Of a stretch of 64,000 bases of DNA, positions 545 through 53,862 are shown in pieces. The stretch comes from an uncultured Acidobacteriota bacterium (GTDB lineage: Bacteria > Actinomycetota > Acidimicrobiia > Spongiisociales > ZC4RG35). The translations under genes and the position numbers were made by a program. The DNA lies in assembly GCA_963780755.1 (NCBI GenBank), contig CAWACX010000001.1, forward strand, positions 351,278 to 415,277. Direction: 5' to 3'. Under the pieces are notes generated by a model, which saw nothing but the letters and a program-made list of their open reading frames with translations, was not told where the DNA came from and did not search any database. The first letter of the stretch is position 1, and every line of letters starts with the position of its first letter.

Positions 545-1669
545 GCGAAGAGATCAACGTGGTCGTTGCCGCCCTGATCAAACGGGGCAAGCATCGTGGC
601 TTCCTGACGATGGCCGAGGTCCAACAGGAGTTGGAGGACGCCGAAGCGTCGGGCGAGGCCTTCGAGAAGGTCGCCGACGCCCTACACGCCCAGGGGATCA
701 GGCTCACCGAGGAAGGTCCAGGGGTCACAGAGGAGTTCGCAGAGGTCGGCCAGATCTCAGTCTCCGACCCGGTTCGCCTCTATCTCAACGAGATCGGCCG
801 TTACCCGCTGCTCACCGCCCAACAGGAAGTCGAGCTGGCGATGCAGATGGAGGCCGGGCGCCGGGCGCAGTGTCGCCTCGACGAGGCCGACCTCACCGAG
901 GAGGATCGCTCTTTCCTCGATCATGAGTTGACGATGGGTGAGGCCGCCCACGACTCGTTGGTGCAGTCAAACCTCCGCCTGGTGGTCGCACTGGCCCGTC
1001 GCTACGTGGGGCGGGGCATGGCGCTTCTCGACCTGATCCAGGAGGGGAACGTCGGGCTGATGCGGGCCGTGGAACGCTTCGACTACAGGACGCGGCTTCA
1101 AGTTCTCCACCTATGCGACGTGGTGGATTCGCCAGGCGATATCGCGGGCCATTGCCGACCAGGGTCGGACTATTCGGATGCCGATCCATGTGCTCGACTC
1201 GGTGAACAAGCTGACCCGGGCGCAGCGGGAACTGACCCAGCAGATGGGTCGGGCACCGACCCTCGACGAGCTGGCGTTCGAGCTGGACATCGAGCCGAGC
1301 CGGGTGGCGGAGTTGCAGCGAATCGCCCAGGACACGGTTTCCCTGGAGACGCCGGTGGGGGAGGACGACGATGGGACTTTGGCCGACCTGGTCGAGGATC
1401 ACGACTCTGACCGGCCCGCCGACGCCGCGACGTTCGCCTCGCTCCAGGACCAGCTGGCTGAGGCCCTCGAAGGACTGAACGAGAGGGAGCGTGAGGTGCT
1501 GATCATGCGCTTCGGTCTCGCCGACGGGCGGATGCGGACCCTCGAGGAGGTGGGCTCGCATTTCAAGGTGACGCGGGAGCGGATCCGGCAGCTCGAGACC
1601 AAGGCGCTGGCCAAGCTGCGCCACCCCGACAAGTCACACAAATTGGAGGGTTTTCTCGAGGGGTCCTGA
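541..1669 (+). CDS. rpoD: Primary sigma-70 factor (region 1.1 to region 4); +1 frameshift near 1090
   Basis: [40 protein letters not shown]; continues in +1 frame with [39 protein letters not shown]. Confidence 0.95.
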
Positions 1670-1731
1670 GCGGCAGCGACTCTCTATATGCTCGCCTCCG
1701 GGACCTGCTCGGTGAGAATGATCCGCGAACA

Positions 1732-2043
1732 ATGATGGAGCTACTGCCGCCTGACTTCGAAGCCCTGGCCTCCAAGAAAGACATTGGCCGCGTCGAGACG
1801 GGGATGGGCCGATTCGAGGAGCGAATGGATCGCCTGGACACTCGGATGGACCACTTGGAGGAGCGGATGGACCGCTTCGAGCAGAGGTTGGATCGGTTCG
1901 AAACGTCTATGGAGAGGTTCGACGACCGCCTCCACGACTTCCATTCGGCTCTGCGAGAGCAAACCCGGATCTACATCTTGGCGTCGACGACTTCCGCCCT
2001 GACGGTGGGTGCAATGGCTTTCGCCGCCGCCAAACTGGTCTGA
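1732..2043 (+). CDS. Coiled-coil protein with C-terminal membrane anchor (DUF1640/CCDC90-like); may start upstream
   Basis: LASKKDI motif, about six heptads RMDRxxx, hydrophobic C-terminus. Confidence 0.65.
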   Translation: MMELLPPDFEALASKKDIGRVETGMGRFEERMDRLDTRMDHLEERMDRFEQRLDRFETSMERFDDRLHDFHSALREQTRIYILASTTSALTVGAMAFAAAKLV

Positions 2044-2103
2044 CCAGCCGAATCTGGCTACCCGGGGCGGCGTTGGTATCCTTCCCCTGCCAACCGGCAC
2101 CCT

Positions 2104-2176
2104 TCCGCGGTAGCTCAATTGGTAGAGCAGTGGACTGTTAATCCATTGGTTGTAGGTTCGAGTCCTACCCGCGGAG
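2104..2176 (+). tRNA. tRNA-Asn(GTT)
   Basis: Cloverleaf TCCGCGG/CCGCGGA acceptor, TAGCTCAATTGGTAGAGC D-arm, CTGTTAA anticodon loop, GGTTCGAGTCC T-arm; CCA not fully encoded. Confidence 0.97.
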
Positions 2177-2504
2177 CCGGATTTCTGCTGGTCGTGATTG
2201 AGAAATCAGTGCGGCGACGTGAGCGAAGACGTGTGACATGTGTAGCCACCGGGCACGGCCATCGGGCACGGGTGCACATTAAGAGACTGTGAAGGCCTCT
2301 TATCCCTTATCCGGGGAGTGAGGACAAGCAGGCGGGGCGTGCTACTCCCAACTAGAACTGCCCGAGCCGCTCTATATGCGCCGTTCCGAGCGGGTGGACT
2401 TCGGCTGAGCTCGAACATTCTGATCGGCTTGCGCGGTCCAGGAGTGGGTTGCCGTCCGAGGACAGATCGGCATTTGAAACGGGAGCGATACGTAGGCTCC
2501 GTGA

Positions 2505-3500
2505 ATGAGCGACGAGATGACGTACGGGCGTCTGGGGCGCTCCGGTCTGCTGGTGAGCCGAGTCGGGCTGGGGACGATGAGCTTCGGCTTCAACACCGAC
2601 GAGTCGAGCAGTTTCGCGGTGATGGACGCCGCGATCGATGCGGGTATTAACTTCTTCGACACCGCCGACGTGTACGGCGGTCCGCAGTCGCCGGACATGG
2701 ACAAGGGCTACGGCATCTCGGAGGAGATCATCGGGCGATGGCTGCAGCGCAGCGGACGCCGCGACGAGATTGTGTTGGCCTCGAAGGTGTACCAGCCGAT
2801 GGGTCTTGGGCCGAACGACCGCCGGTTGTCGGCGTATCACATTCGGCGTGCGTGCGAGGCGAGCTTGCGGCGACTGCAGACCGACCACATCGACCTGTAT
2901 CAGATGCATCACGTCGATCGGGCGACGCCGTGGGACGAGATCTGGCAGGCGATGGAGCAGTTGGTGCGCGACGGCAAGATCACCTACGTCGGCAGCAGCA
3001 ACTTTGCCGGGTGGGACGTGGCCCTCGCCCAATCAGCCGCTGCGACCCGTCACTTCGTGGGGCTGACTTCTGAGCAGAGCTTGTACAACCTCGCTGTGCG
3101 AACCGTGGAGCTGGAGTTGATCCCTGCGCTGCGTGCTCTCGGCATCGGCCTGATTCCGTACAGCCCGCTCCACGCTGGTCTGCTTACCGGTGTGTTAGCA
3201 GCGGCCAACGAGGGGCGGATCTCCGATGACGCGATGCGGCATCGCGTCGAGGCGCACCGCGATCAGCTCGAAGCGTATGAAGGTTTGTGCCGGGAGCTGG
3301 GGGCGAAGCCGGTCGATGTGGCGATCGCTTGGCTGTTGCGGAACCCGGTCGTGGCCACGACGGTGGTCGGACCGACGACGAGCGAGGAGTTGCGGGCCGA
3401 CCTCGGTGGGTTGTCCCTGCACTTGGATGACGAGGTTGTCGAACGACTCGATTCGATATGGCCGGGGCCGGGCGAAGCTCCGCAGGCATATGCCTGGTGA
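2505..3500 (+). CDS. Aldo/keto reductase
   Basis: LGRSGLLVSRVGLGTM, GINFFDTADVYG, SLRRLQTDHIDLYQMH, YSPLHAGLL. Confidence 0.95.
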   Translation: MSDEMTYGRLGRSGLLVSRVGLGTMSFGFNTDESSSFAVMDAAIDAGINFFDTADVYGGPQSPDMDKGYGISEEIIGRWLQRSGRRDEIVLASKVYQPMGLGPNDRRLSAYHIRRACEASLRRLQTDHIDLYQMHHVDRATPWDEIWQAMEQLVRDGKITYVGSSNFAGWDVALAQSAAATRHFVGLTSEQSLYNLAVRTVELELIPALRALGIGLIPYSPLHAGLLTGVLAAANEGRISDDAMRHRVEAHRDQLEAYEGLCRELGAKPVDVAIAWLLRNPVVATTVVGPTTSEELRADLGGLSLHLDDEVVERLDSIWPGPGEAPQAYAW

Positions 3501-46254: not shown

Positions 46255-46329
46255 GGGCCCGTAGCTCAATCCGGTCAGAGCAGCGGACTCATAATCCGTT
46301 GGTTGCAGGTTCAAGTCCTGCCGGGCCCA
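46255..46329 (+). tRNA. tRNA with CAT anticodon, probably tRNA-Ile2
   Basis: GGGCCCG/CGGGCCC acceptor, CTCATAA loop, GGTTCAAGTCC T-arm; lacks initiator C1:A72 mismatch and the three G:C anticodon-stem pairs. Confidence 0.92.
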
Positions 46330-48703: not shown

Positions 48704-48788
48704 TTGCGGACGATAGCCCAGGGCCTCGTCGCTGCCCTGGCCGGGTGGAAGAATGCCCATCGTGAATTCCCCGCGCCCGGTGGGAAGG

Positions 48789-50000
48789 ATGAATCGAACC
48801 GTCGACAGGCTGTTGTCGATCGGCACCTACCCGGAGGAGCTGGAGGCACAGCGAGCCCGACGGCGCATCATGGTGGCCGCAATCTTCCTGGCGACTCTGT
48901 TGTCCATCGTTGGTATTGCCAGCGACGCAAATGCCGGGTTTGTCCTGTCGGTCTGGTTTGGCCTGGCGGTCGTCGTGATCACGGTCGGTGTGCTCGTCGC
49001 CCTGCACCTACGACCACTCTGGTTTGCAGCTCTGGTCAACGCATTATTTGTCGCAGTGACCCTTTCCCAGCTCGTGGAGGCCACGTTGTTTGGTGGATTC
49101 CTCGAGTCAGGGCTGGTCGTTATGTTCGGTCTGGTCATTGTGACCGGTGCCCTGGTCGCACTCGGCACCAAGGCGGCGTACTGGTGGTTTGCGGCTTTTG
49201 TCCTGTCGGTTGTCTATTCGGTCCTCATCCCCAACTGGGTGGACCCGGTCTATGTGATGACCGACCCGGGAGGCGACGCAGCATTCAACCTCGTAGCTGC
49301 AGGATCGGTGATATTTGCGGTGATGGTCTATTTCGTGCGACAACGCGACAGATTCCAGAAGCAGTCCGACGACCTGCTTCACAACATCCTGCCGGACGAG
49401 ATCGCCAAGCGACTCAAGGTGGACACCGCGATGATCGCCGATTCCTTCCCATCGGCCTCGGTGCTGTTCGCCGACGTGGTGGGATTCACCCCGATGTCAG
49501 CCGGAATGTCCGCCCCGGAGTTGGTTGGCCTGCTGAACAGCATTTTCACCACCTTCGATGGCTTCGTGGAAGAGCTGGGACTGGAGAAGATCAAGACCGT
49601 TGGAGATGCCTACATGGCCGCCGCAGGCGTACCGGAGACCCGGGTCGACCATGCCGAAGCAATCGCTGAGCTCGCCCTGCGCATCCGCGATCATGTGGCG
49701 GATCACGAGTTCGCGGGACACAAGATCGCGGTTCGGATCGGGATCAACTCCGGCCCGGTGATCGCCGGGATCATCGGCACCCACAAGTTCTCCTACGACC
49801 TCTGGGGAGATGTGGTGAACACGGCGAGCCGGATGGAGTCGGAGGGAGTGCCTGGGGCGATACAGGTGAGCGCCAGCACCTGCGAATTGATACGGAGCCG
49901 GTTCTTTTGCGAGCCGCGTGGCACTGTCTCGATCAAGGGAAAAGGCGAGATGGAGACCTACATCCTTCTTTCGCGTCGGGCTCCTGCCCCGGTTGATTAG
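48789..50000 (+). CDS. Membrane-bound class III adenylate cyclase
   Basis: About six TMs, LLHNILP, LFADVVGFT, EKIKTVGDAYM, YDLWGDVVNTASRME (K/D = ATP specificity). Confidence 0.93.
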   Translation: MNRTVDRLLSIGTYPEELEAQRARRRIMVAAIFLATLLSIVGIASDANAGFVLSVWFGLAVVVITVGVLVALHLRPLWFAALVNALFVAVTLSQLVEATLFGGFLESGLVVMFGLVIVTGALVALGTKAAYWWFAAFVLSVVYSVLIPNWVDPVYVMTDPGGDAAFNLVAAGSVIFAVMVYFVRQRDRFQKQSDDLLHNILPDEIAKRLKVDTAMIADSFPSASVLFADVVGFTPMSAGMSAPELVGLLNSIFTTFDGFVEELGLEKIKTVGDAYMAAAGVPETRVDHAEAIAELALRIRDHVADHEFAGHKIAVRIGINSGPVIAGIIGTHKFSYDLWGDVVNTASRMESEGVPGAIQVSASTCELIRSRFFCEPRGTVSIKGKGEMETYILLSRRAPAPVD

Positions 50001-50014
50001 CTAGTGAGCAAGGG

Positions 50015-50371
50015 TTGAAGTTCGAGGCCGTCGACCAGTACCTCGCCGCCCAGCCCGAGGAGGTCCGGGAGATCCTGGAGAGGATCCGGGAGCGGATGAG
50101 GGAATGGGTCCCCGACGGCGAGGAGGTCATCAGCTACCAGATCCCGACCATCAAGGTCGGTGGCAAGGCCGTGGTCTATTTCGCGGCTTGGAAGAGCCAC
50201 ATCTCGATCTATCCCGTCCACCCGCTCGACGAGCCGTTGGAGGCCGAAGTCTCCAGGTACCGCTCGGGCAAGGACACGTTGCGCTTCCCTCTCGACGAGC
50301 CGATTCCGTATGACTTGATCGGACAGGTAGTCGCAGCGATCCTCGCCAGACATCAGGGGAAGACGGGCTGA
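50015..50371 (+). CDS. DUF1801 (YdhG-like) protein
   Basis: VDQYLAAQP, EVISYQIPT, FAAWKSHISIYP, LRFPLDEPIP. Confidence 0.88.
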   Translation: MKFEAVDQYLAAQPEEVREILERIRERMREWVPDGEEVISYQIPTIKVGGKAVVYFAAWKSHISIYPVHPLDEPLEAEVSRYRSGKDTLRFPLDEPIPYDLIGQVVAAILARHQGKTG

Positions 50372-50377
50372 CCGTTC

Positions 50378-50719
50378 CTAGCGGCTGTCGAATTCCACGG
50401 CTTGGGCGATGTAGTAGCGGAGGGCGTCGGTGTCCATCGTGTCCACGCTCTTCATCCTGACGTTCTTCGACACGTGGCCAACTCCTTCGAGCAGCCCAAA
50501 CTCGTCGTCGAACTCGGCCCCCCGAGAGAAGGCGAGTGTGATGCCCTTCTTCGTCGGGCTGATCACGGCGATAATCCGTGTCAGCTTGTAACTCGGTATC
50601 CCGTAGCTGATGATCTCGTCGGCGTCGGGGGCGCACTCTCGCATCATCTCCCGGATCCTCTCGACCACAGGTCGGTACTCGGGGAGGACCTTGGTGGCGA
50701 CGAATTCATCGACGGTCAC
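50378..50719 (-). CDS. DUF1801 (YdhG-like) protein
   Basis: EIISYGIP, F.RGAEFDD.FGLLEG.G, LRYYI.QA. Confidence 0.8.
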   Translation of the reverse strand: MTVDEFVATKVLPEYRPVVERIREMMRECAPDADEIISYGIPSYKLTRIIAVISPTKKGITLAFSRGAEFDDEFGLLEGVGHVSKNVRMKSVDTMDTDALRYYIAQAVEFDSR

Positions 50720-50792
50720 GGCGCTGACGGTACCCGTTTACCCAGTCCGCGAAAACTGATCGTGAGTCGCGAAAAAAGGAAAGCATCCTGGC

Positions 50793-50821
50793 TTGCATCC
50801 CCGGAGCGGAGTCCCTACCTT
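50793..50821 (+). promoter_or_regulatory. Sigma-A type promoter of putative ncRNA
   Basis: TTGCAT-N17-TACCTT with upstream A-tract GAAAAAAGGAAA. Confidence 0.65.
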
Positions 50822-50828
50822 CCCATTT

Positions 50829-50980
50829 GTCGGTACGGGGGCAACCCCGAATCGACCCCAAAGTGACCGAGAGGCCACTATGGGACCCTCTGGGAGACCA
50901 GTCCTTCGGGGCCGGAGTCCGAGAAGGGTCGATAGCCCCGAGAGGGTGGAGGCTTCGGCCGAAACTCCCTCGGGGTTTTT
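50829..50980 (+). ncRNA. Putative stand-alone structured small RNA, family not recognised
   Basis: Five stems capped by GCAA, GAGA, GAGA, cUUCGg, cUUCGg; long-range ATCGACCC/GGGTCGAT; terminal CCCCGAG/CTCGGGG + T5; no credible downstream + strand gene. Confidence 0.7.
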
Positions 50981-50991
50981 CGCGTTCGGGG

Positions 50992-51561
50992 TCAGGGGGA
51001 CGCGACCCGACCCGTATCGACCGGATCGAGGCGAGGGGAGTGGGCGTAGGCCCATCCCAAACACACCAGTCCGGCACACATCGAGATCAGGCCGATCAAT
51101 GCGGCCCACCGTTCCAGCCCGACCGGCGGTCGGCTGTTCTCGTCACCGAGATGGGCGCCGGCGAGGAACACAGAGAGCCAGAGCAGGGCGCCCACGCCAA
51201 GGAGGAGGGGCACGAGGCGGCGTCGATGGACGCGGTATTCGAACAAGGCGATCAGCGCCATCCCGGCCGAGTACAAGGGATGGCTGACGGTGAGGCCGAG
51301 CGCTGTCGAACCCACGGCCAACCACCAAACGGCTGTCGACTCGCCTCGTCGAGCAAGCTCGAGCCCGATCAGCCACATCCCCCCGATGGTGAGCACGAGG
51401 GCAAGGGCGTGGAGCCCGAGCGCGGCGGGCCAGAACCCCGACAACGGATTGTCCCCGAACCACCCCGGGGCGAGGGTGGTCGGGCTCCACTGGAACAAGA
51501 AGTAGGCGAGTCCTCCCGCCGCCATCAGCCAGCCCCCGGCGCGTGACCCCAAGGGTGTCAT
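50992..51561 (-). CDS. Multi-TM hypothetical membrane protein
   Basis: About six hydrophobic segments; ATGA overlap with upstream phosphatase. Confidence 0.65.
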   Translation of the reverse strand: MTPLGSRAGGWLMAAGGLAYFLFQWSPTTLAPGWFGDNPLSGFWPAALGLHALALVLTIGGMWLIGLELARRGESTAVWWLAVGSTALGLTVSHPLYSAGMALIALFEYRVHRRRLVPLLLGVGALLWLSVFLAGAHLGDENSRPPVGLERWAALIGLISMCAGLVCLGWAYAHSPRLDPVDTGRVASP

Positions 51562-53862
51562 CGTTCCACCTCCGCAAGTACGGGCACCCTCGTCAGTGTG
51601 ACCATCGTGATGTCGTCTTCCTGTTCCCAGCCATTCCCCACGAACTCCTCATGGGCAGCGAGGGCCTCGGCCACCAGGTCGCCGCTCCCATCTACGGCAG
51701 CGATGGCCTCTCGGAGCCGATCGGTGCCGAACATCTCGCCATCAGGTGCATGTGCCTCGGCGAGGCCGTCACTGGTGAGGGTGAGGCTCTCGGTCGGCCG
51801 CAGCGCTCCTTCTACCTCCTCGTAATCCATGCCCGGCATCAGGCCGAGCGGCATGCCGCGAACCATGATCTCCGTCACCGAGTCGCTGGAGCTGACGTAG
51901 GGGAGGTTGTGGCCGGCGTTGGCGGCCACCATGGTTCCCAGGACCGGGTCGATCACTGTGAGCAGGCAGGTCACGAACATCCCGTCGGGTATGTCCGGCT
52001 CGAGGCGGTTGTTGACATCGGCCAGCACCCGACCCGGAGGCATGCCACTGCTGGCAGCCACCCGGAGCAGGGTCATGCAGGTGGCCATCACCAGGGCGGC
52101 AGGTATGCCCTTGTCGCTGACATCACCGATGACCACCGCCAATCGTCCGTCGGGCAGAGGTATCCAGTCGAAGAAGTCGCCACCCACCTCGCGGGCGGGG
52201 CGATAGACCGAATCGAAGGCCCAACCTTCGATGTTCGGGGGCTCATGGGGGAGAAGCCCCTGCTGGATTTTCCGGGCCAGCTCGAGCTCGTGGACCTCGC
52301 GCTCCCGGTTTCGGGCGTCTCGTTCCCGGGTGCGGACCTCGTATGTCAACTGCAACGCAGGCCCGGCGGCCTGGGCCAGCCGGTCGAGCAGGTCGAGGTC
52401 GAGGGCCGAGTACGCGCGACTCAGAGGAGCGCTTGCCGAGGTCAAGCACACCTGTCAGAGACCCGCCTGCAACCAGGGGGACCAACACTGCCGAGCCGTT
52501 CGATCGGAATGGGACGAGCCCGGGGCTCGGCGGGACTGATGAGAGGTCTACGGCGGTGCCCTCTCCCAGGTCTTCATGCGTCGCTGGGGAGAATGGCCCG
52601 GTGTGCAACTTCACAGACATCGGGTGCAGCGCCTGCTCGACGACAGTCACCAGCCTGGACTCGAGGGTGAGAGGATCGACGAGTCGAGATGCCTCGCCGG
52701 CGAACTGATCGATCACCAGGCGGGCGTCATACCGCTCCCGGTCGAAGCGGCGGTCCACCGACCGCTGCACCCTTCGGCGCAACGGGTTGAACACGAGCGC
52801 GATGCACGTTCCGAGGACAACACCGGCGGCGCCCGACCCCTCGAAAGCGAGATCGGGGAAGTAAGAAGTGAGGGCAGTGATCAACACGGTCAGGGCAAGA
52901 AACGCGAGTCCGACGACCGCGGTCACGGTCCCGTAGACCAGGGCCCGATTGACGATGAGGTCGAGGTCGAACATGCGGTGGCGGACAATGGCCACCGAGA
53001 CCGACACCGGGAACATGAACACCGCGATCGTGAGCAGGAAGAGGATGTTGAGGGCGTAGACCGCCTTGAGTCGGGGAGTCACCACCACCAGGTCGAGAAC
53101 GCCGGACGTCAGCTCCGGCTGAAGCGCCCAAAGCAGGAGGAAAGCGCCTAAGGCCGCGATCAGGGAGATCAAGACCGGCTTGGTGGCCGGTGCCAAAGGA
53201 GTCCGCAGCCGGCGCACCATCTGAGCAGCGATCGCGGCGATCGGGACTCCGACCAGCCAGAGCGCCTGAAGGGCGTAAGGCCAGGTCCGGGGATCGACGA
53301 AGGTGCTGGGCAGGAGCAGGGTGAGGAATCCGATGACCGCGGCCGTTGCCACCAGCCACCTCGTCCATAACGGTTCCCATCGCCCGTCGGGGAAGGTTGC
53401 GAGAAACGCAAGCGAGGCAACGCCGGCCAGGGAGCTCCAGAAGGTGAACAGCGACGTCGGGGTGATCGAGCCAAGGAGCGCCGCCAGGTCGAACGAGCCC
53501 GGGAGAAGGTACAGGGGCGCGAAGAGGCTGGTCCCCAGTGCGGCCAGGGTGACCGCGGCCAATGGCGCTCGATCGGAGGCGCCGCGCTTCGCTATCAGCA
53601 ACGTCGCCAAGCCCACGAATACTGCGATCCCGACGATGTGAAGGACGCGCTGGGTGACTCCGAGCGCCGGAAGCTCGAAGAGCACCGCCAGTTCGCTCTC
53701 CATGTGGCGGTCCACGGCAGCGGGGCCTTGGGGAAGCAGCCCACGGGCCGGGTTGCGGAGCAGCAGTCCCATCGAGGCAACCGACGCCATGGCCAGCAAC
53801 GTCACGACGAAGGCACCGATCCAGCGTGGCAGCAGCGCGGTCCTCGGGGAGAGCGTGGTCAC
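51558..53862 (-). CDS. Membrane-anchored GAF-like + SpoIIE/PP2C phosphatase (RsbU-like); +1 frameshift near 52413
   Basis: TM domain FPDGR, PLRRRVQRSVDRRF; then ARKIQQGLLP, VGGDFFD, GDVSDKG.PAAL, MFVT, NAGH, SDGLAEA, DDIT. Confidence 0.88.

What the first reader, a model, noticed from the sequence alone, without database searches (positions are those of the whole stretch)
50793..50980. Stand-alone, tetraloop-rich structured RNA of unrecognised family
Seen: promoter TTGCAT-N17-TACCTT, then CGGGG-GCAA-CCCCG (50836-49), GTG.CC-GAGA-GG.CAC (50863-78), CTGG-GAGA-CCAG (50890-901), CC-TTCG-GG (50903-10), enclosed by GGAC/GTCC and ATCGACCC/GGGTCGAT (50851-58/50926-33), and a terminal stem carrying GGC-TTCG-GCC followed by T5. 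Both flanking genes are on the minus strand, so it leads no mRNA. Five canonical stable tetraloops in ~150 nt on one strand imply selection on RNA structure. I cannot match it to tRNA, SRP, RNase P, tmRNA, 6C or common riboswitches. Inference: novel ncRNA, possibly an RNA-polymerase-binding Ms1/6S analogue or protein-scaffold RNA.
Basis: partly seen in the sequence, partly recalled or inferred. Interest (0 to 1): 0.85.

Follow-up and report, generated by a model that had tools for sequence, protein, structure and literature searches.

The report
New small RNA family in Acidimicrobiia
This is a real, stand-alone gene for a folded RNA of about 150 bases, one of three related RNA genes in this soil actinobacterium, and the family matches no catalogued RNA family and its job is still unknown.

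Summary
The + strand folds far better than shuffles (z -4.3).

The region is an independent sRNA gene of about 152 nt (window ~50829-50980, + strand). Rfam 15 has no match.

The genome holds exactly three such units. All three share:
- two upstream TCGCGAAA repeats, 20 nt apart;
- a TTGnnn-N17-TAnnnT promoter at a fixed distance;
- a 5' hairpin;
- a nearly invariant terminator hairpin.

A covariance model of the window RNA, which also detects the two paralogue types, matches 112 of 121 sampled genomes of the window's order of Acidimicrobiia. Structure is supported by covariation: 25 of 48 pairs carry compensatory double changes in a MAFFT alignment, and 36 of 48 across 60 distinct sequences.

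Contigs identical to the window occur in metatranscriptome libraries and end in adapter sequence just after the T-run.

The RNA is four hairpins in a row, not a 6S/Ms1-like rod.

The same upstream repeat pair also precedes dnaA and class II ribonucleotide reductase genes in related genomes. This suggests a replication-linked regulon.

Function is inferred, not shown. I favour a protein-binding RNA.

The parts
50748..50755 (+). Upstream repeat 1, CGCGAAAA (distal copy of the direct repeat)
   Evidence: The pair CGCGAAA-N13-CGCGAAA occurs exactly 3 times in the 2.2-Mb genome, each time upstream of one of the three RNA units. Start-to-start spacing is 20 nt in 83 and 21 nt in 44 of 129 non-redundant units.
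50767..50775 (+). Upstream repeat 2, TCGCGAAAA (proximal copy). Its CGCG starts 25 nt before the -35 TTG.
   Evidence: T precedes the core in 64-65% of units, and TTG stands at offset +25 in 86-90% of 129 units; the whole architecture is found in 71 of 76 sampled genomes of the order, with a reversed-pattern control of 0 there.
50793..50798 (+). -35 hexamer TTGCAT
   Evidence: 112 of 129 non-redundant units have TTGnnn-N16-19-TAnnnT at the expected place. TTGCAT occurs in 15 of them and TTGACG in 27.
50816..50821 (+). -10 hexamer TACCTT (17-nt spacer)
   Evidence: the spacer is 17 nt in 65 units and 18 nt in 45. The -10 variants are TACTTT 23, TACCTT 16, TACGTT 16, TACATT 16. The spacer sequence itself is not conserved.
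50829..50980 (+). The sRNA itself (type A), about 152 nt. The 5' end is predicted (G, 8 nt after the -10). The 3' end is at the end of the T5 run.
   Evidence: Model R1 matches window 50828-50984 at 168.8 bits. Contigs identical to the window cover 50838-50982 in RNA libraries X14 and X19/X20, with Illumina adapter letters directly behind 50981. The 5' end was not determined.
50829..50856 (+). P1: 5' hairpin. GUCGGU/AUCGAC lower stem, CGGGG/CCCCG upper stem, GCAA loop.
   Evidence: In one search the upper stem has 5 of 5 pairs with compensatory changes and 96.9% of cells paired. The loop is GYAA in nearly all rows.
50857..50884 (+). P2: hairpin with an invariant GAGA tetraloop (50869-72) closed by C-G
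   Evidence: G43 A44 G45 A46 are invariant in 33 of 33 rows; 7 of 8 pairs show double changes; all 8 pairs of the two sub-helices show double changes.
50885..50929 (+). P3: long irregular hairpin. Base ACCC/GGGU; invariant internal loop GGGAGAC (50893-99) facing GGAGU (50914-18); apical CCAGUCC-UUCG-GGGCCGG.
   Evidence: G66-C72 and G88-T92 are invariant; helices 4-6 pair in 93-99% of cells, with covariation. The alternative small hairpin CTGG-GAGA-CCAG (50890-901) is compatible but less well supported.
50930..50980 (+). Linker CGAUAG plus P4, the terminator hairpin: CCCCGAG-A-GGGU ... GGC-UUCG-GCC ... ACUC-C-CUCGGGG. It ends in the T5 run (50976-80). Shared with paralogues B and C.
   Evidence: The outer stem CCCCGAGAGGG/CTCCCTCGGGG is invariant in 33 of 33 type-A rows. 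It contains a conserved A.C mismatch and a G.U pair. The inner pair 129-146 covaries (UA 22, CG 4, UG 3).
50976..50984 (+). TTTTTCGCG: T-run plus a downstream CGCG, the reverse complement of the upstream CGCGAAAAA motif
   Evidence: 94 of 141 units have CGCG starting 3-8 nt after the stem. TTTCTCGCG occurs 29 times and TTTTTCGCG 27 times. The adapter junction at 50981 suggests most of the CGCG is not in the RNA, so this would be a DNA-level feature. That is inference.

Best explanation
Window ~50829-50980 (+) is an independent gene for a stable, highly structured small RNA of about 152 nt ('type A'). It belongs to a previously undescribed family found throughout one order of Acidimicrobiia.

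Shown:
- It has its own sigma-A-type promoter and an intrinsic terminator.
- It folds into four consecutive hairpins (P1-P4) capped by GCAA, GAGA, UUCG and UUCG loops.
- The genome has two paralogues, B (~140 nt) and C (~350 nt), in tandem 550 kb away. They share the promoter architecture, a 5' hairpin and an almost invariant 3' hairpin, but have different bodies.

Inferred, about 0.7: transcription is driven by a DNA-binding factor that recognises the two TCGCGAAA repeats centred near -61 and -82. The same factor would also act at dnaA and class II ribonucleotide reductase promoters in related genomes. That would tie the RNAs to a replication or growth regulon.

Inferred, about 0.4: the RNA acts in trans by binding a protein, as a titrating or scaffolding RNA. 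The sequence-invariant 3' hairpin, with its A.C mismatch and G.U pair, together with the GAGA-type elements (CGAGAGG, GGGAGAC/GGAGU, GAGAR linker), would be the common recognition module. The variable body would give each paralogue its specificity. The partner is unknown. RNA polymerase is one candidate among others.
For: Gene and family:
- Exactly 3 repeat pairs and 3 terminators occur in the genome, always paired.
- 141 of 174 terminators in 146 loci have the strict repeat pair within 700 nt upstream. 9 of the other 33 lie at locus edges.
- 112 of 129 units have a promoter at a fixed offset.
- R1 matches 112 of 121 genomes of the order.
- The exact terminator pattern is in 42 of 301 genomes of the class, all 42 in the window's order.
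- There are at least 119 stretches in public genomes, and nearly all record titles name Acidimicrobiia MAGs.

Structure:
- z -4.3.
- 25 of 48 pairs show double changes and 96.4% of cells pair, against 34-57% for slid controls.
- 36 of 48 pairs and 95.6% on 60 distinct sequences (this alignment is fitted to the model).

Strand: many conserved G.U pairs, tetraloops that are stable only on +, the T-run, and the promoter.

RNA libraries:
- Contigs with 0 differences cover 50838-50982 in X14 and X19/X20.
- Adapter letters directly follow 50981 in all three runs.
- A paralogue-type contig carries a poly(A) tail on the + sense.

Not coding: the ATG at 50880 is not conserved, and indels are not in threes.

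Protein-binding reading:
- The outer terminator stem is invariant while other helices covary freely.
- All hairpin loops are structural caps, and there is no long conserved single strand.
- Gene copies are amplified to 5-7 model matches per genome, in tandem arrays, in family f6.
- No Hfq was found.

Regulon:
- The repeat pair stands 188 nt upstream of dnaA in 5 of 5 hits in family f16.
- It stands upstream of class II RNR in 4 of 4 fetched non-sRNA sites in family f2.
Against: - No protein partner is identified. CsrA, Hfq and Ro60 (TROVE) were not found in the genome, which is 89% complete.
- Invariance of the terminator stem could instead reflect a DNA-level site, or a special termination or stability need.
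- The expression evidence is from assembled contigs only. The tool warns that presence in an RNA library does not prove transcription, and that depth is no measure of expression.
- The 5' end is not mapped. One adapter junction lies at 50838, inside P1.
- In the window's own genome the regulon link is weak. The dnaA site has one mismatch, and a reversed-genome control gives as many one-mismatch hits (4 against 4). The dnaB site is a single repeat.
- A2 is fitted to the model, so its pair counts lean towards the structure.
Confidence: 0.4

Rival explanations
1. It is a base-pairing riboregulator. One conserved segment pairs with mRNAs, as in paralogous sRNA families elsewhere. Candidates are GGGAGAC in P3, or the CUCCCUC anti-Shine-Dalgarno-like arm of the terminator. 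The shared promoter sites would make the three RNAs one regulon output.
For: Multi-copy, co-regulated paralogues with conserved ends resemble known base-pairing families such as OmrA/B, Qrr and csRNAs (recalled, not tested here). The invariant 7-mer GGGAGAC and 5-mer GGAGU lie in an internal loop. CUCCCUC is complementary to purine-rich ribosome-binding sites (read from the sequence).
Against: There is no extended conserved single-stranded stretch. The invariant bases face each other in an internal loop, or are locked in an 11-bp G+C-rich stem. All loops are GNRA or UUCG caps of 4 nt. No Hfq was found. No target search was done.
Confidence: 0.25
2. It is a 6S/Ms1/CoRP-type RNA that binds RNA polymerase. 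This is a special case of the protein-binding reading.
For: Actinobacteria use lineage-specific, abundant, weakly conserved RNAP-binding RNAs: Ms1 (PMC4191392, passages; PMC9130861, sections 7 and 22) and CoRP (PMC11077062, section 27). No 6S match was found in this genome. It is a single-gene unit with a sigma-A-like promoter and an intrinsic terminator, like Ms1. The longer paralogue C lies upstream of a bPH_2 gene, and 'PH' is one of the Ms1 synteny words in PMC9130861 Table 3.
Against: Type A is 152 nt and folds into four separate hairpins. It has no long rod, no central bubble and no 5'-3' closing stem. Paralogue C also folds as beads on a string in a single-sequence MFE. Rfam finds nothing for A, B or C. 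The window locus has no Ms1-type neighbours.
Confidence: 0.12
3. It is a structured RNA with another role. Examples are a component of a ribonucleoprotein, a ligand-binding RNA, or a self-associating RNA that uses the GNRA loops and the conserved internal loop as tertiary contacts.
For: There are two invariant GNRA-type loops (GYAA, GAGA) and an invariant asymmetric internal loop that could act as a receptor. The family is near-universal in the order. Sequence conservation of unpaired bases is high.
Against: There is no evidence for any ligand, partner or tertiary contact. The three paralogues have different bodies, which fits poorly with one fixed tertiary fold. The RNA is small.
Confidence: 0.15
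4. It is not a trans-acting RNA gene. It is a cis element of the neighbouring genes (leader, attenuator, bidirectional terminator) or a repeated or mobile DNA element.
For: It sits between two genes. The hairpin-plus-T-run could end transcription. The 3' module is repeated in the genome. The flanking motifs are in inverted orientation (CGCGAAAA ... TTTTCGCG).
Against: Both neighbours are on the other strand and no + strand gene follows. Neighbours differ between clades. There are only three copies per genome, each with its own conserved promoter. Covariation and G.U pairs are strand-specific for +. No transposase or target duplication was seen.
Confidence: 0.03

Closest known systems
Ms1 RNA of Mycobacterium/Streptomyces, and 6S RNA (RF00013)
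   Same: Actinobacterial. A stand-alone gene with a sigma-A-like promoter and an intrinsic terminator. Highly structured, with short hairpins at both ends. Present in RNA libraries. Weak sequence conservation outside the clade, as reported for Ms1 (PMC9130861).
   Different: Half the length. Four independent hairpins instead of a long hairpin with a central bubble (against the description in PMC4191392). No Rfam match. Different gene neighbours. Comes as three paralogues with a shared upstream DNA motif. RNAP binding is untested.
Paralogous co-regulated sRNA families with shared ends and shared activator sites: OmrA/OmrB, Qrr1-5, streptococcal csRNAs, RsmX/Y/Z (recalled from general knowledge, not from any call)
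   Same: Several paralogous genes per genome, often in tandem. A common upstream binding-site architecture. Conserved terminator region with a variable body. Copy number varies between lineages.
   Different: No sequence or structure relation. No Hfq or CsrA was found in the genome. No GGA-loop repeats or single-stranded seed. The loops are GNRA or UUCG caps.
CoRP RNA of Corynebacterium glutamicum (PMC11077062, section 27)
   Same: A lineage-specific structured actinobacterial RNA from an intergenic region, without 6S or Ms1 homology.
   Different: CoRP is 516 nt, lies between tRNA genes and is cleaved into two fragments. No similarity was tested or seen. Its RNAP binding is experimental, whereas nothing is known here.
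Orphan structured ncRNA classes found by comparative genomics, such as the raiA motif (PMC10861870; seen only in search listings)
   Same: Defined by covariation and conserved loops, with no known function. Found in Actinobacteria.
   Different: Not matched by any Rfam 15 model, including those classes. Much smaller than the large classes. Restricted to one order.

Membership tests
6S RNA (RF00013) | Match to the covariance model | tested here: not met
   No match in the window at gathering, none at E<=10 in 50650-51100, and none in the whole genome at E<=1. The control genomes rang in 5 of 14.
6S RNA (RF00013) | Rod of about 180 nt closed by the 5' and 3' ends, with a large central bubble | tested here: not met
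   The MFE and the consensus structure are four consecutive hairpins, with no closing stem.
6S RNA (RF00013) | Binds the sigma-70-type holoenzyme and templates pRNA | not testable with these tools
   Needs biochemistry.
Ms1 RNA | About 300 nt; a long hairpin with a central bubble and two short hairpins near the ends (PMC4191392, passages read) | tested here: not met
   152 nt, with short end hairpins present but two separate middle hairpins and no bubble. Paralogue C (358 nt) also folds as many hairpins (single-sequence MFE only).
Ms1 RNA | Conserved synteny with HAD hydrolase, oxidoreductase, CpaE, PH and similar genes (PMC9130861, Tables 1-3) | tested here: not met
   The window neighbours are DUF1801 and an unannotated hydrophobic protein. 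For paralogue C only, a bPH_2/SHOCT gene lies downstream in 35-44 of 85 loci. That is a one-sided and inconclusive resemblance.
Ms1 RNA | Binds RNAP core; accumulates in stationary phase | not testable with these tools
   No cultured material, and only contigs of metatranscriptomes.
6C RNA | Two hairpins with C-rich loops; Rfam model (features recalled) | tested here: not met
   The loops are GCAA, GAGA, UUCG and UUCG. No Rfam match.
Riboswitch / cis-acting leader | Lies upstream of, and on the same strand as, the regulated gene | tested here: not met
   Both neighbours are on the minus strand, and no credible + strand ORF follows the terminator. Neighbours differ between clades.
CsrB/RsmZ-type sponge | Many GGA motifs in hairpin loops; CsrA/RsmA encoded in the genome (features recalled) | tested here: not met
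   CsrA (PF02599) was not found in the 89%-complete genome. The loops are 4-nt GNRA or UUCG caps.
Hfq-dependent base-pairing sRNA | Hfq present; single-stranded seed plus U-tail | tested here: not met
   Hfq (PF17209) was not found. A U-tail is present, but there is no single-stranded conserved seed.
Bacterial Y RNA | Ro60 (TROVE) encoded; stem formed by the 5' and 3' ends (features recalled) | tested here: not met
   TROVE (PF05731) was not found. There is no 5'-3' stem.
The family defined here (Acidimicrobiia 'TCGCGAAA-promoter' sRNAs, type A) | Repeat pair 20-21 nt apart, with the -35 TTG 25 nt after the second repeat | tested here: met
   Window 50748/50768, then TTG at 50793.
The family defined here (Acidimicrobiia 'TCGCGAAA-promoter' sRNAs, type A) | Terminator CCCCGAGAGGG-N15-19-CTCCCTCGGGG plus a T-rich tail | tested here: met
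   Window 50936-50980.
The family defined here (Acidimicrobiia 'TCGCGAAA-promoter' sRNAs, type A) | Type-A body: P1 with a GYAA loop, P2 with a GAGA loop, P3 with GGGAGAC/GGAGU and a UUCG apex | tested here: met
   168.8 bits to R1. The invariant columns are listed. The window was part of the seed alignment, so its own score is by construction. The independent support is the 79 other matches.

The most novel reading that the evidence does not exclude
An order of Acidimicrobiia carries a so-far undescribed regulatory module. One DNA-binding factor recognises tandem TCGCGAAA repeats and drives the replication genes (dnaA, class II ribonucleotide reductase, perhaps dnaB). It also drives two to seven paralogous structured sRNAs that share an invariant 3' hairpin. 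These RNAs would be a new class of protein-binding riboregulators that couple DNA replication or dNTP supply to another global process. One possibility is that they are the clade's functional counterpart of 6S/Ms1, acting on the transcription machinery through a different fold.
Probability: 0.25. Interest if true: 0.8.

Novelty: new variant of a known kind. Interest (0 to 1): 0.62.

Why it matters
Acidimicrobiia are common in soils, rhizospheres and mine waters. They are almost entirely uncultured, and in four library searches I found no paper describing small RNAs in them.

This finding gives:
- a covariation-supported RNA family present in 112 of 121 sampled genomes of one order;
- precise gene boundaries;
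- three paralogue types;
- a matching cis-regulatory DNA motif that also marks replication genes.

It therefore offers a concrete entry point to gene regulation in this class. There is a motif with which to fish for the transcription factor. There is an invariant RNA hairpin with which to fish for a binding protein. There is also a ready covariance model for annotating these RNAs in metagenomes and metatranscriptomes.

If the RNAs turn out to bind RNA polymerase, they would add a third structural solution, beside 6S and Ms1, to the same problem.

Tried and rejected
- The consensus promoter/terminator scan found 0 sites in 50300-51500. The -35 matches only 3 of 6 consensus bases, so that scan is blind to this promoter.
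- Rfam at permissive thresholds gave only chance-level hits: ilvH, mir-9791 and sR46 at E 0.37-1.9, and F6, RT-13 and others for paralogues B and C at E >= 0.4.
- Weak BLAST hits of the RNA elsewhere in the genome (E 0.1-5) lie in coding sequence. I checked C2:732 kb.
- Read laying: the flanks 50300-50837 and 50997-51500 had no cover in X14, X19 and X20. X12 gave only a 572-nt, 94%-identical, depth-3 contig across the locus, from a relative, which is uninformative. X19 and X20 gave identical tables and are counted as one data set. Depths are not used to rank expression.
- Stop-to-stop ORF clustering of flanks was dominated by shadow ORFs of this G+C-rich DNA and by 'proteins' translated from the conserved RNA. 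Only the bPH_2, acyl-CoA-ligase-like and PD-(D/E)XK clusters were kept.
- A direct test against Ms1 sequences was not possible. I could not name the Rfam accession, and no named Ms1 sequence was available from a tool.
- The relaxed repeat-pair scan of the genome (at most 1 mismatch) gave 4 hits against 4 in the reversed control. The dnaA site of this genome is therefore not significant on its own.
- The phylum-wide repeat-pair scan found 3 matches in about 368 genomes outside the class. They are dissimilar to each other and taken as chance. The f26 hit (L183) lies inside a coding region.
- An anti-terminator pairing between CCCUCU (P3) and AGAGGG (terminator arm) was considered. It was dropped because the P3 strand is not conserved in homologues.
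- A small-ORF reading was rejected because the ATG at 50880 is not conserved.
- No supplements of papers were opened. The Ms1 candidate tables of PMC9130861 could list Acidimicrobiia-like records that I could not see.
Full report
1. WHAT IS IN THE SEQUENCE

The 272-nt gap 50720-50991 lies between two minus-strand ORFs. One is a DUF1801 protein (50378-50719). The other is a 189-aa hydrophobic protein without a Pfam family (50992-51561).

The + strand of 50825-50985 folds to -87.8 kcal/mol. Dinucleotide shuffles average -66.8 +/- 4.9, giving z -4.3, and 0 of 200 shuffles fold as well. The minus strand is weaker, z -3.3.

The simple consensus scan reports no promoter and no terminator. Those two calls therefore rest on the comparative evidence below.

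2. NOT A KNOWN FAMILY

Rfam 15 at gathering thresholds finds only two tRNAs in the whole window. A permissive search of 50650-51100 gives three chance-level hits, E 0.37-1.9, all far below their gathering scores. The 6S model finds nothing in the whole genome, which is 89% complete.

Four literature searches returned no paper that describes sRNAs of Acidimicrobiia. The Ms1 survey contains no word beginning 'Acidimicrobi' (PMC9130861). I read its sections 7 and 22 but did not see its supplements.

3. ONE OF THREE PARALOGOUS GENES

The 3' third of the element recurs twice more in the same genome, at C1:950.3-951.0 kb on the minus strand.

Read side by side, the three units share five features:
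a) an upstream direct repeat (T)CGCGAAA(A/T), with copies 20 nt apart;
b) a TTGnnn-N17-TACnTT promoter whose -35 begins 25 nt after the second repeat;
c) a 5' hairpin that starts at about the predicted start site;
d) a body full of G+C-rich hairpins;
e) the hairpin CCCCGAGAGGG...GGC-UUCG-GCC...CUCCCUCGGGG followed by a T-rich tail and, usually, CGCG.

In the 2.2-Mb genome the repeat pair occurs exactly three times and the terminator exactly three times, always together.

- Unit A is the window RNA, about 152 nt.
- Unit B is about 140 nt.
- Unit C is about 350 nt.

B and C are in tandem. A DUF2306 membrane gene and a PD-(D/E)XK nuclease gene lie upstream, and a bPH_2/SHOCT gene lies downstream.

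4. DISTRIBUTION

- A BLAST of the 201-nt region hits 33 of 41 relatives.
Nearly all record titles name Acidimicrobiia MAGs.
- Among 301 genomes sampled from the class, 42 have the exact terminator pattern. All 42 are in the window's order: f1 27/35, f2 5/16, f6 3/3, f9 3/9, f12 3/7, f5 0/3, f11 0/2, f10 0/1, plus G000. None of the 224 genomes in other orders has it.
- A covariance model of type A (R1) matches 112 of 121 genomes of the order at E <= 0.001, and 81 of 89 among high-quality genomes.
- R1 also detects B and C through the shared modules. In G000 it scores A 168.8, C 59.8 and B 57.5 bits.
- Matches of 100 bits or more, which are clear type A, are in 21 genomes of 6 families.
- Family f6 carries tandem arrays with up to 5-7 matches per genome. 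Each unit has its own repeats, promoter and terminator.

In 146 fetched loci, 141 of 174 terminators have the strict repeat pair within 700 nt upstream, and 9 of the other 33 are at locus edges. The distance from repeat to terminator falls into two groups. A short group of 218-237 nt has 58 units, which are types A and B. A long group of 272-681 nt is type C.

Four genomes flagged unpublished were among those counted: G011 (row L013 in A1 and A2), G027, G281 and G239. No claim depends on them.

5. STRUCTURE

Of the 51 non-redundant short units, 33 are type A, 15 are type B and 3 are another type. A MAFFT alignment of the 33 type-A RNAs is A1.

RNAalifold on A1 gives 48 pairs, of which 25 carry compensatory double changes. 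On that structure 96.4% of cells pair, against 34-57% when partners are slid by 1-3 columns. None of 500 column shuffles reaches the observed values.

A larger alignment fitted to the model (A2: 80 matches, 60 distinct) gives 36 of 48 pairs with double changes and 95.6% of cells paired. Because it is fitted to the model, it leans towards the structure.

The fold is four hairpins in a row:
- P1, 50829-56, with a GYAA loop.
- P2, 50857-84, with a GAGA loop invariant in 33 of 33 rows.
- P3, 50885-929, with an invariant internal loop GGGAGAC facing GGAGU and a UUCG apex.
- P4, the terminator.

Frequent conserved G.U pairs would be A.C mismatches on the other strand. One example is G.U in 58 of 60 rows at one terminator pair. 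This fixes the + strand.

- The two enclosing helices are poorly kept: ATCGACCC/GGGTCGAT pairs in 60.6% of cells and GGAC/GTCC in 75%.
- CTGG-GAGA-CCAG pairs in 91%, but it competes with the nested hairpin. The nested form has the covarying pair 79-94, while the rival pair 67-79 is broken in 7 of 29 rows.
Its 8% value is therefore meaningless.

The outer 11 positions of the terminator stem are invariant in all 33 type-A rows, including an A.C mismatch and a G.U pair. The next pair inward covaries (UA 22, CG 4, UG 3). In an f6 array one copy shows a compensated U-A at the outermost pair.

The region is not coding. The only ATG, at 50880, is lost in homologues, and indels are not multiples of three.

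6. PROMOTER AND DNA MOTIF

In 129 non-redundant units:
- the repeat cores are 20 nt (83 units) or 21 nt (44 units) apart;
- T precedes the core in 64-65%;
- TTG stands 25 nt after the second core in 86-90%;
- 112 of 129 have TTGnnn-N16-19-TAnnnT at that place, with the spacer 17 nt in 65 and 18 nt in 45.

The spacer sequence itself is free, as expected for a promoter. With a start near 50829, the repeats are centred near -61 and -82. Those are classical positions for an activator. That reading is inference.

94 of 141 units carry CGCG 3-8 nt after the stem. The tail TTTTTCGCG is therefore an inverted copy of the upstream motif.

7. RNA LIBRARIES

Six runs on record as metatranscriptomes hold half or more of the sampled words. 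Four were laid on window 50300-51500.

- In X14 and in X19/X20, contigs with no difference from the window cover 50838-50950 and 50921-50981. X19 and X20 give identical tables and are counted as one data set.
- In all three runs Illumina adapter letters directly follow 50981, one base after the T5 run.
- In X14 adapter letters directly precede 50838.
- X14 also holds a paralogue-type contig that ends ...CCTTCTCGC followed by poly(A) on the + sense.

These are assembled contigs. The tool warns that presence in an RNA library does not prove transcription and that depth is no measure of level. I take the reproducible insert end at the predicted termination point as moderate support for a discrete + strand RNA. 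The 5' end remains unmapped.

8. A WIDER REGULON (noticed while testing the motif)

The pattern 'repeat pair then TTG' is in 71 of 76 sampled genomes of the order, and the reversed-pattern control gives 0 there.

- It is also in 5 of 65 genomes of a distant, A+T-rich family with ~1-Mb genomes (f16). In all 5 it lies 188 nt upstream of dnaA (Pfam on one).
- In family f2, 4 of 4 fetched sites away from the sRNA loci form a distal promoter upstream of a class II B12-dependent ribonucleotide reductase gene. Sequences there resemble NrdR boxes by eye (Pfam on one).
- In the window's genome a one-mismatch pair lies about 300 nt upstream of the DnaA-box cluster and dnaA. The reversed-genome control gives as many such hits, 4 against 4.
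- A single repeat with TTG at +25 precedes dnaB.
- Outside the class, only 3 of about 368 genomes have a match, and those matches are dissimilar.

One DNA-binding factor that controls replication and dNTP genes together with these sRNAs is the simplest reading. The factor itself is unknown.

9. HOW IT MOST LIKELY WORKS

Shown: it is an independent gene with conserved cis elements, a conserved fold, a + strand orientation and order-wide conservation with paralogues.

Inferred: it acts in trans.

I favour protein binding (about 0.4) for five reasons:
- The terminator stem is conserved in sequence, while all other helices drift by compensation.
- The conserved unpaired bases sit in tetraloops and in one internal loop, not in a free seed.
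- The paralogues keep the ends and vary the body.
- Copy number is amplified in some lineages.
- No Hfq was found.

CsrA and Ro60 were also not found, so the partner would be new.

Rivals:
- Base pairing, 0.25.
- A 6S/Ms1/CoRP-like RNAP binder, 0.12. This is a special case of protein binding. The anatomy does not fit, but function is untested.
- Another structural role, 0.15.
- A cis or mobile element, 0.03. This is contradicted by strand, context and promoter.

10. COMPARISON AND NOVELTY

It works like other stand-alone bacterial sRNA genes. In organisation it resembles co-regulated paralogous families such as OmrA/B, Qrr, csRNAs and Rsm (recalled, not tested). It is not a member of 6S, Ms1, 6C, Y RNA, Csr/Rsm or any riboswitch class: the defining features I could test were not met (see the membership table).

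I file it as a new variant of a known kind: a new sRNA family with an unusual invariant 3' module and a replication-linked promoter motif.

Interest is 0.62. The family is solid and order-wide, in a poorly known clade, and gives testable handles, but its function is still open.

Noticed in passing
L178-L182 (family f16, about 188 nt upstream of dnaA); L191-L194 (family f2, upstream of class II ribonucleotide reductase); G000:C2:494435-494462 (upstream of dnaA); G000:C2:~465418 minus strand (upstream of dnaB, locus L147): The TCGCGAAA repeat pair with TTG about 25 nt downstream is not limited to the sRNA genes. It also precedes dnaA, class II RNR and perhaps dnaB, which suggests a replication or dNTP regulon with an unknown DNA-binding factor. 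The sites in the window's own genome are weak on their own: one has a mismatch and one is a single repeat.
   Followed up: partly
G000:C1:950288-951006, minus strand (L002 about 1013-1740): Paralogues B (~140 nt, with an invariant CCGGGGGCCCGCUUUCCCGG hairpin) and C (~350 nt, many UUCG/GNRA-capped hairpins) lie in tandem. The long type sits in a conserved slot upstream of a bPH_2/SHOCT gene in 35-44 of 85 loci. Neither has an Rfam match.
   Followed up: partly
L151, L159, L153, L157 (family f6 genomes G368, G363, G359, G337): Tandem arrays of three to five type-A-like and long units within 3 kb. Each unit has its own repeats, promoter and terminator. Some copies are identical, which points to recent duplication.
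   Followed up: partly
L190 1102-2531 (G000:C2, dnaA): The dnaA reading frame is split into two overlapping ORFs (1102..2124 and 1935..2531). This is a frameshift or an assembly error in this MAG. Typical TGTGGACA-type DnaA boxes lie just upstream.
   Followed up: no
window 50015-50371 (+) and 50378-50719 (-): Two convergent DUF1801 genes sit end to end, 6 nt apart (Pfam).
   Followed up: partly
window 48753-50000 (+) and 51558-52451 (-): By eye only, with no family search run. The 415-aa ORF looks like a membrane-anchored class III nucleotide cyclase. The 297-aa ORF looks like a PP2C/SpoIIE-type phosphatase.
   Followed up: no
window 2104-2176 (+) and 46255-46329 (+): Two tRNA genes are the only Rfam matches in the window.
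   Followed up: no
run X14, contig ending at the family terminator (table 7): A paralogue-type contig ends ...CCTTCTCGC followed by a run of at least 21 A. This is either 3' polyadenylation of the RNA or A-tailing during library preparation.
   Followed up: no
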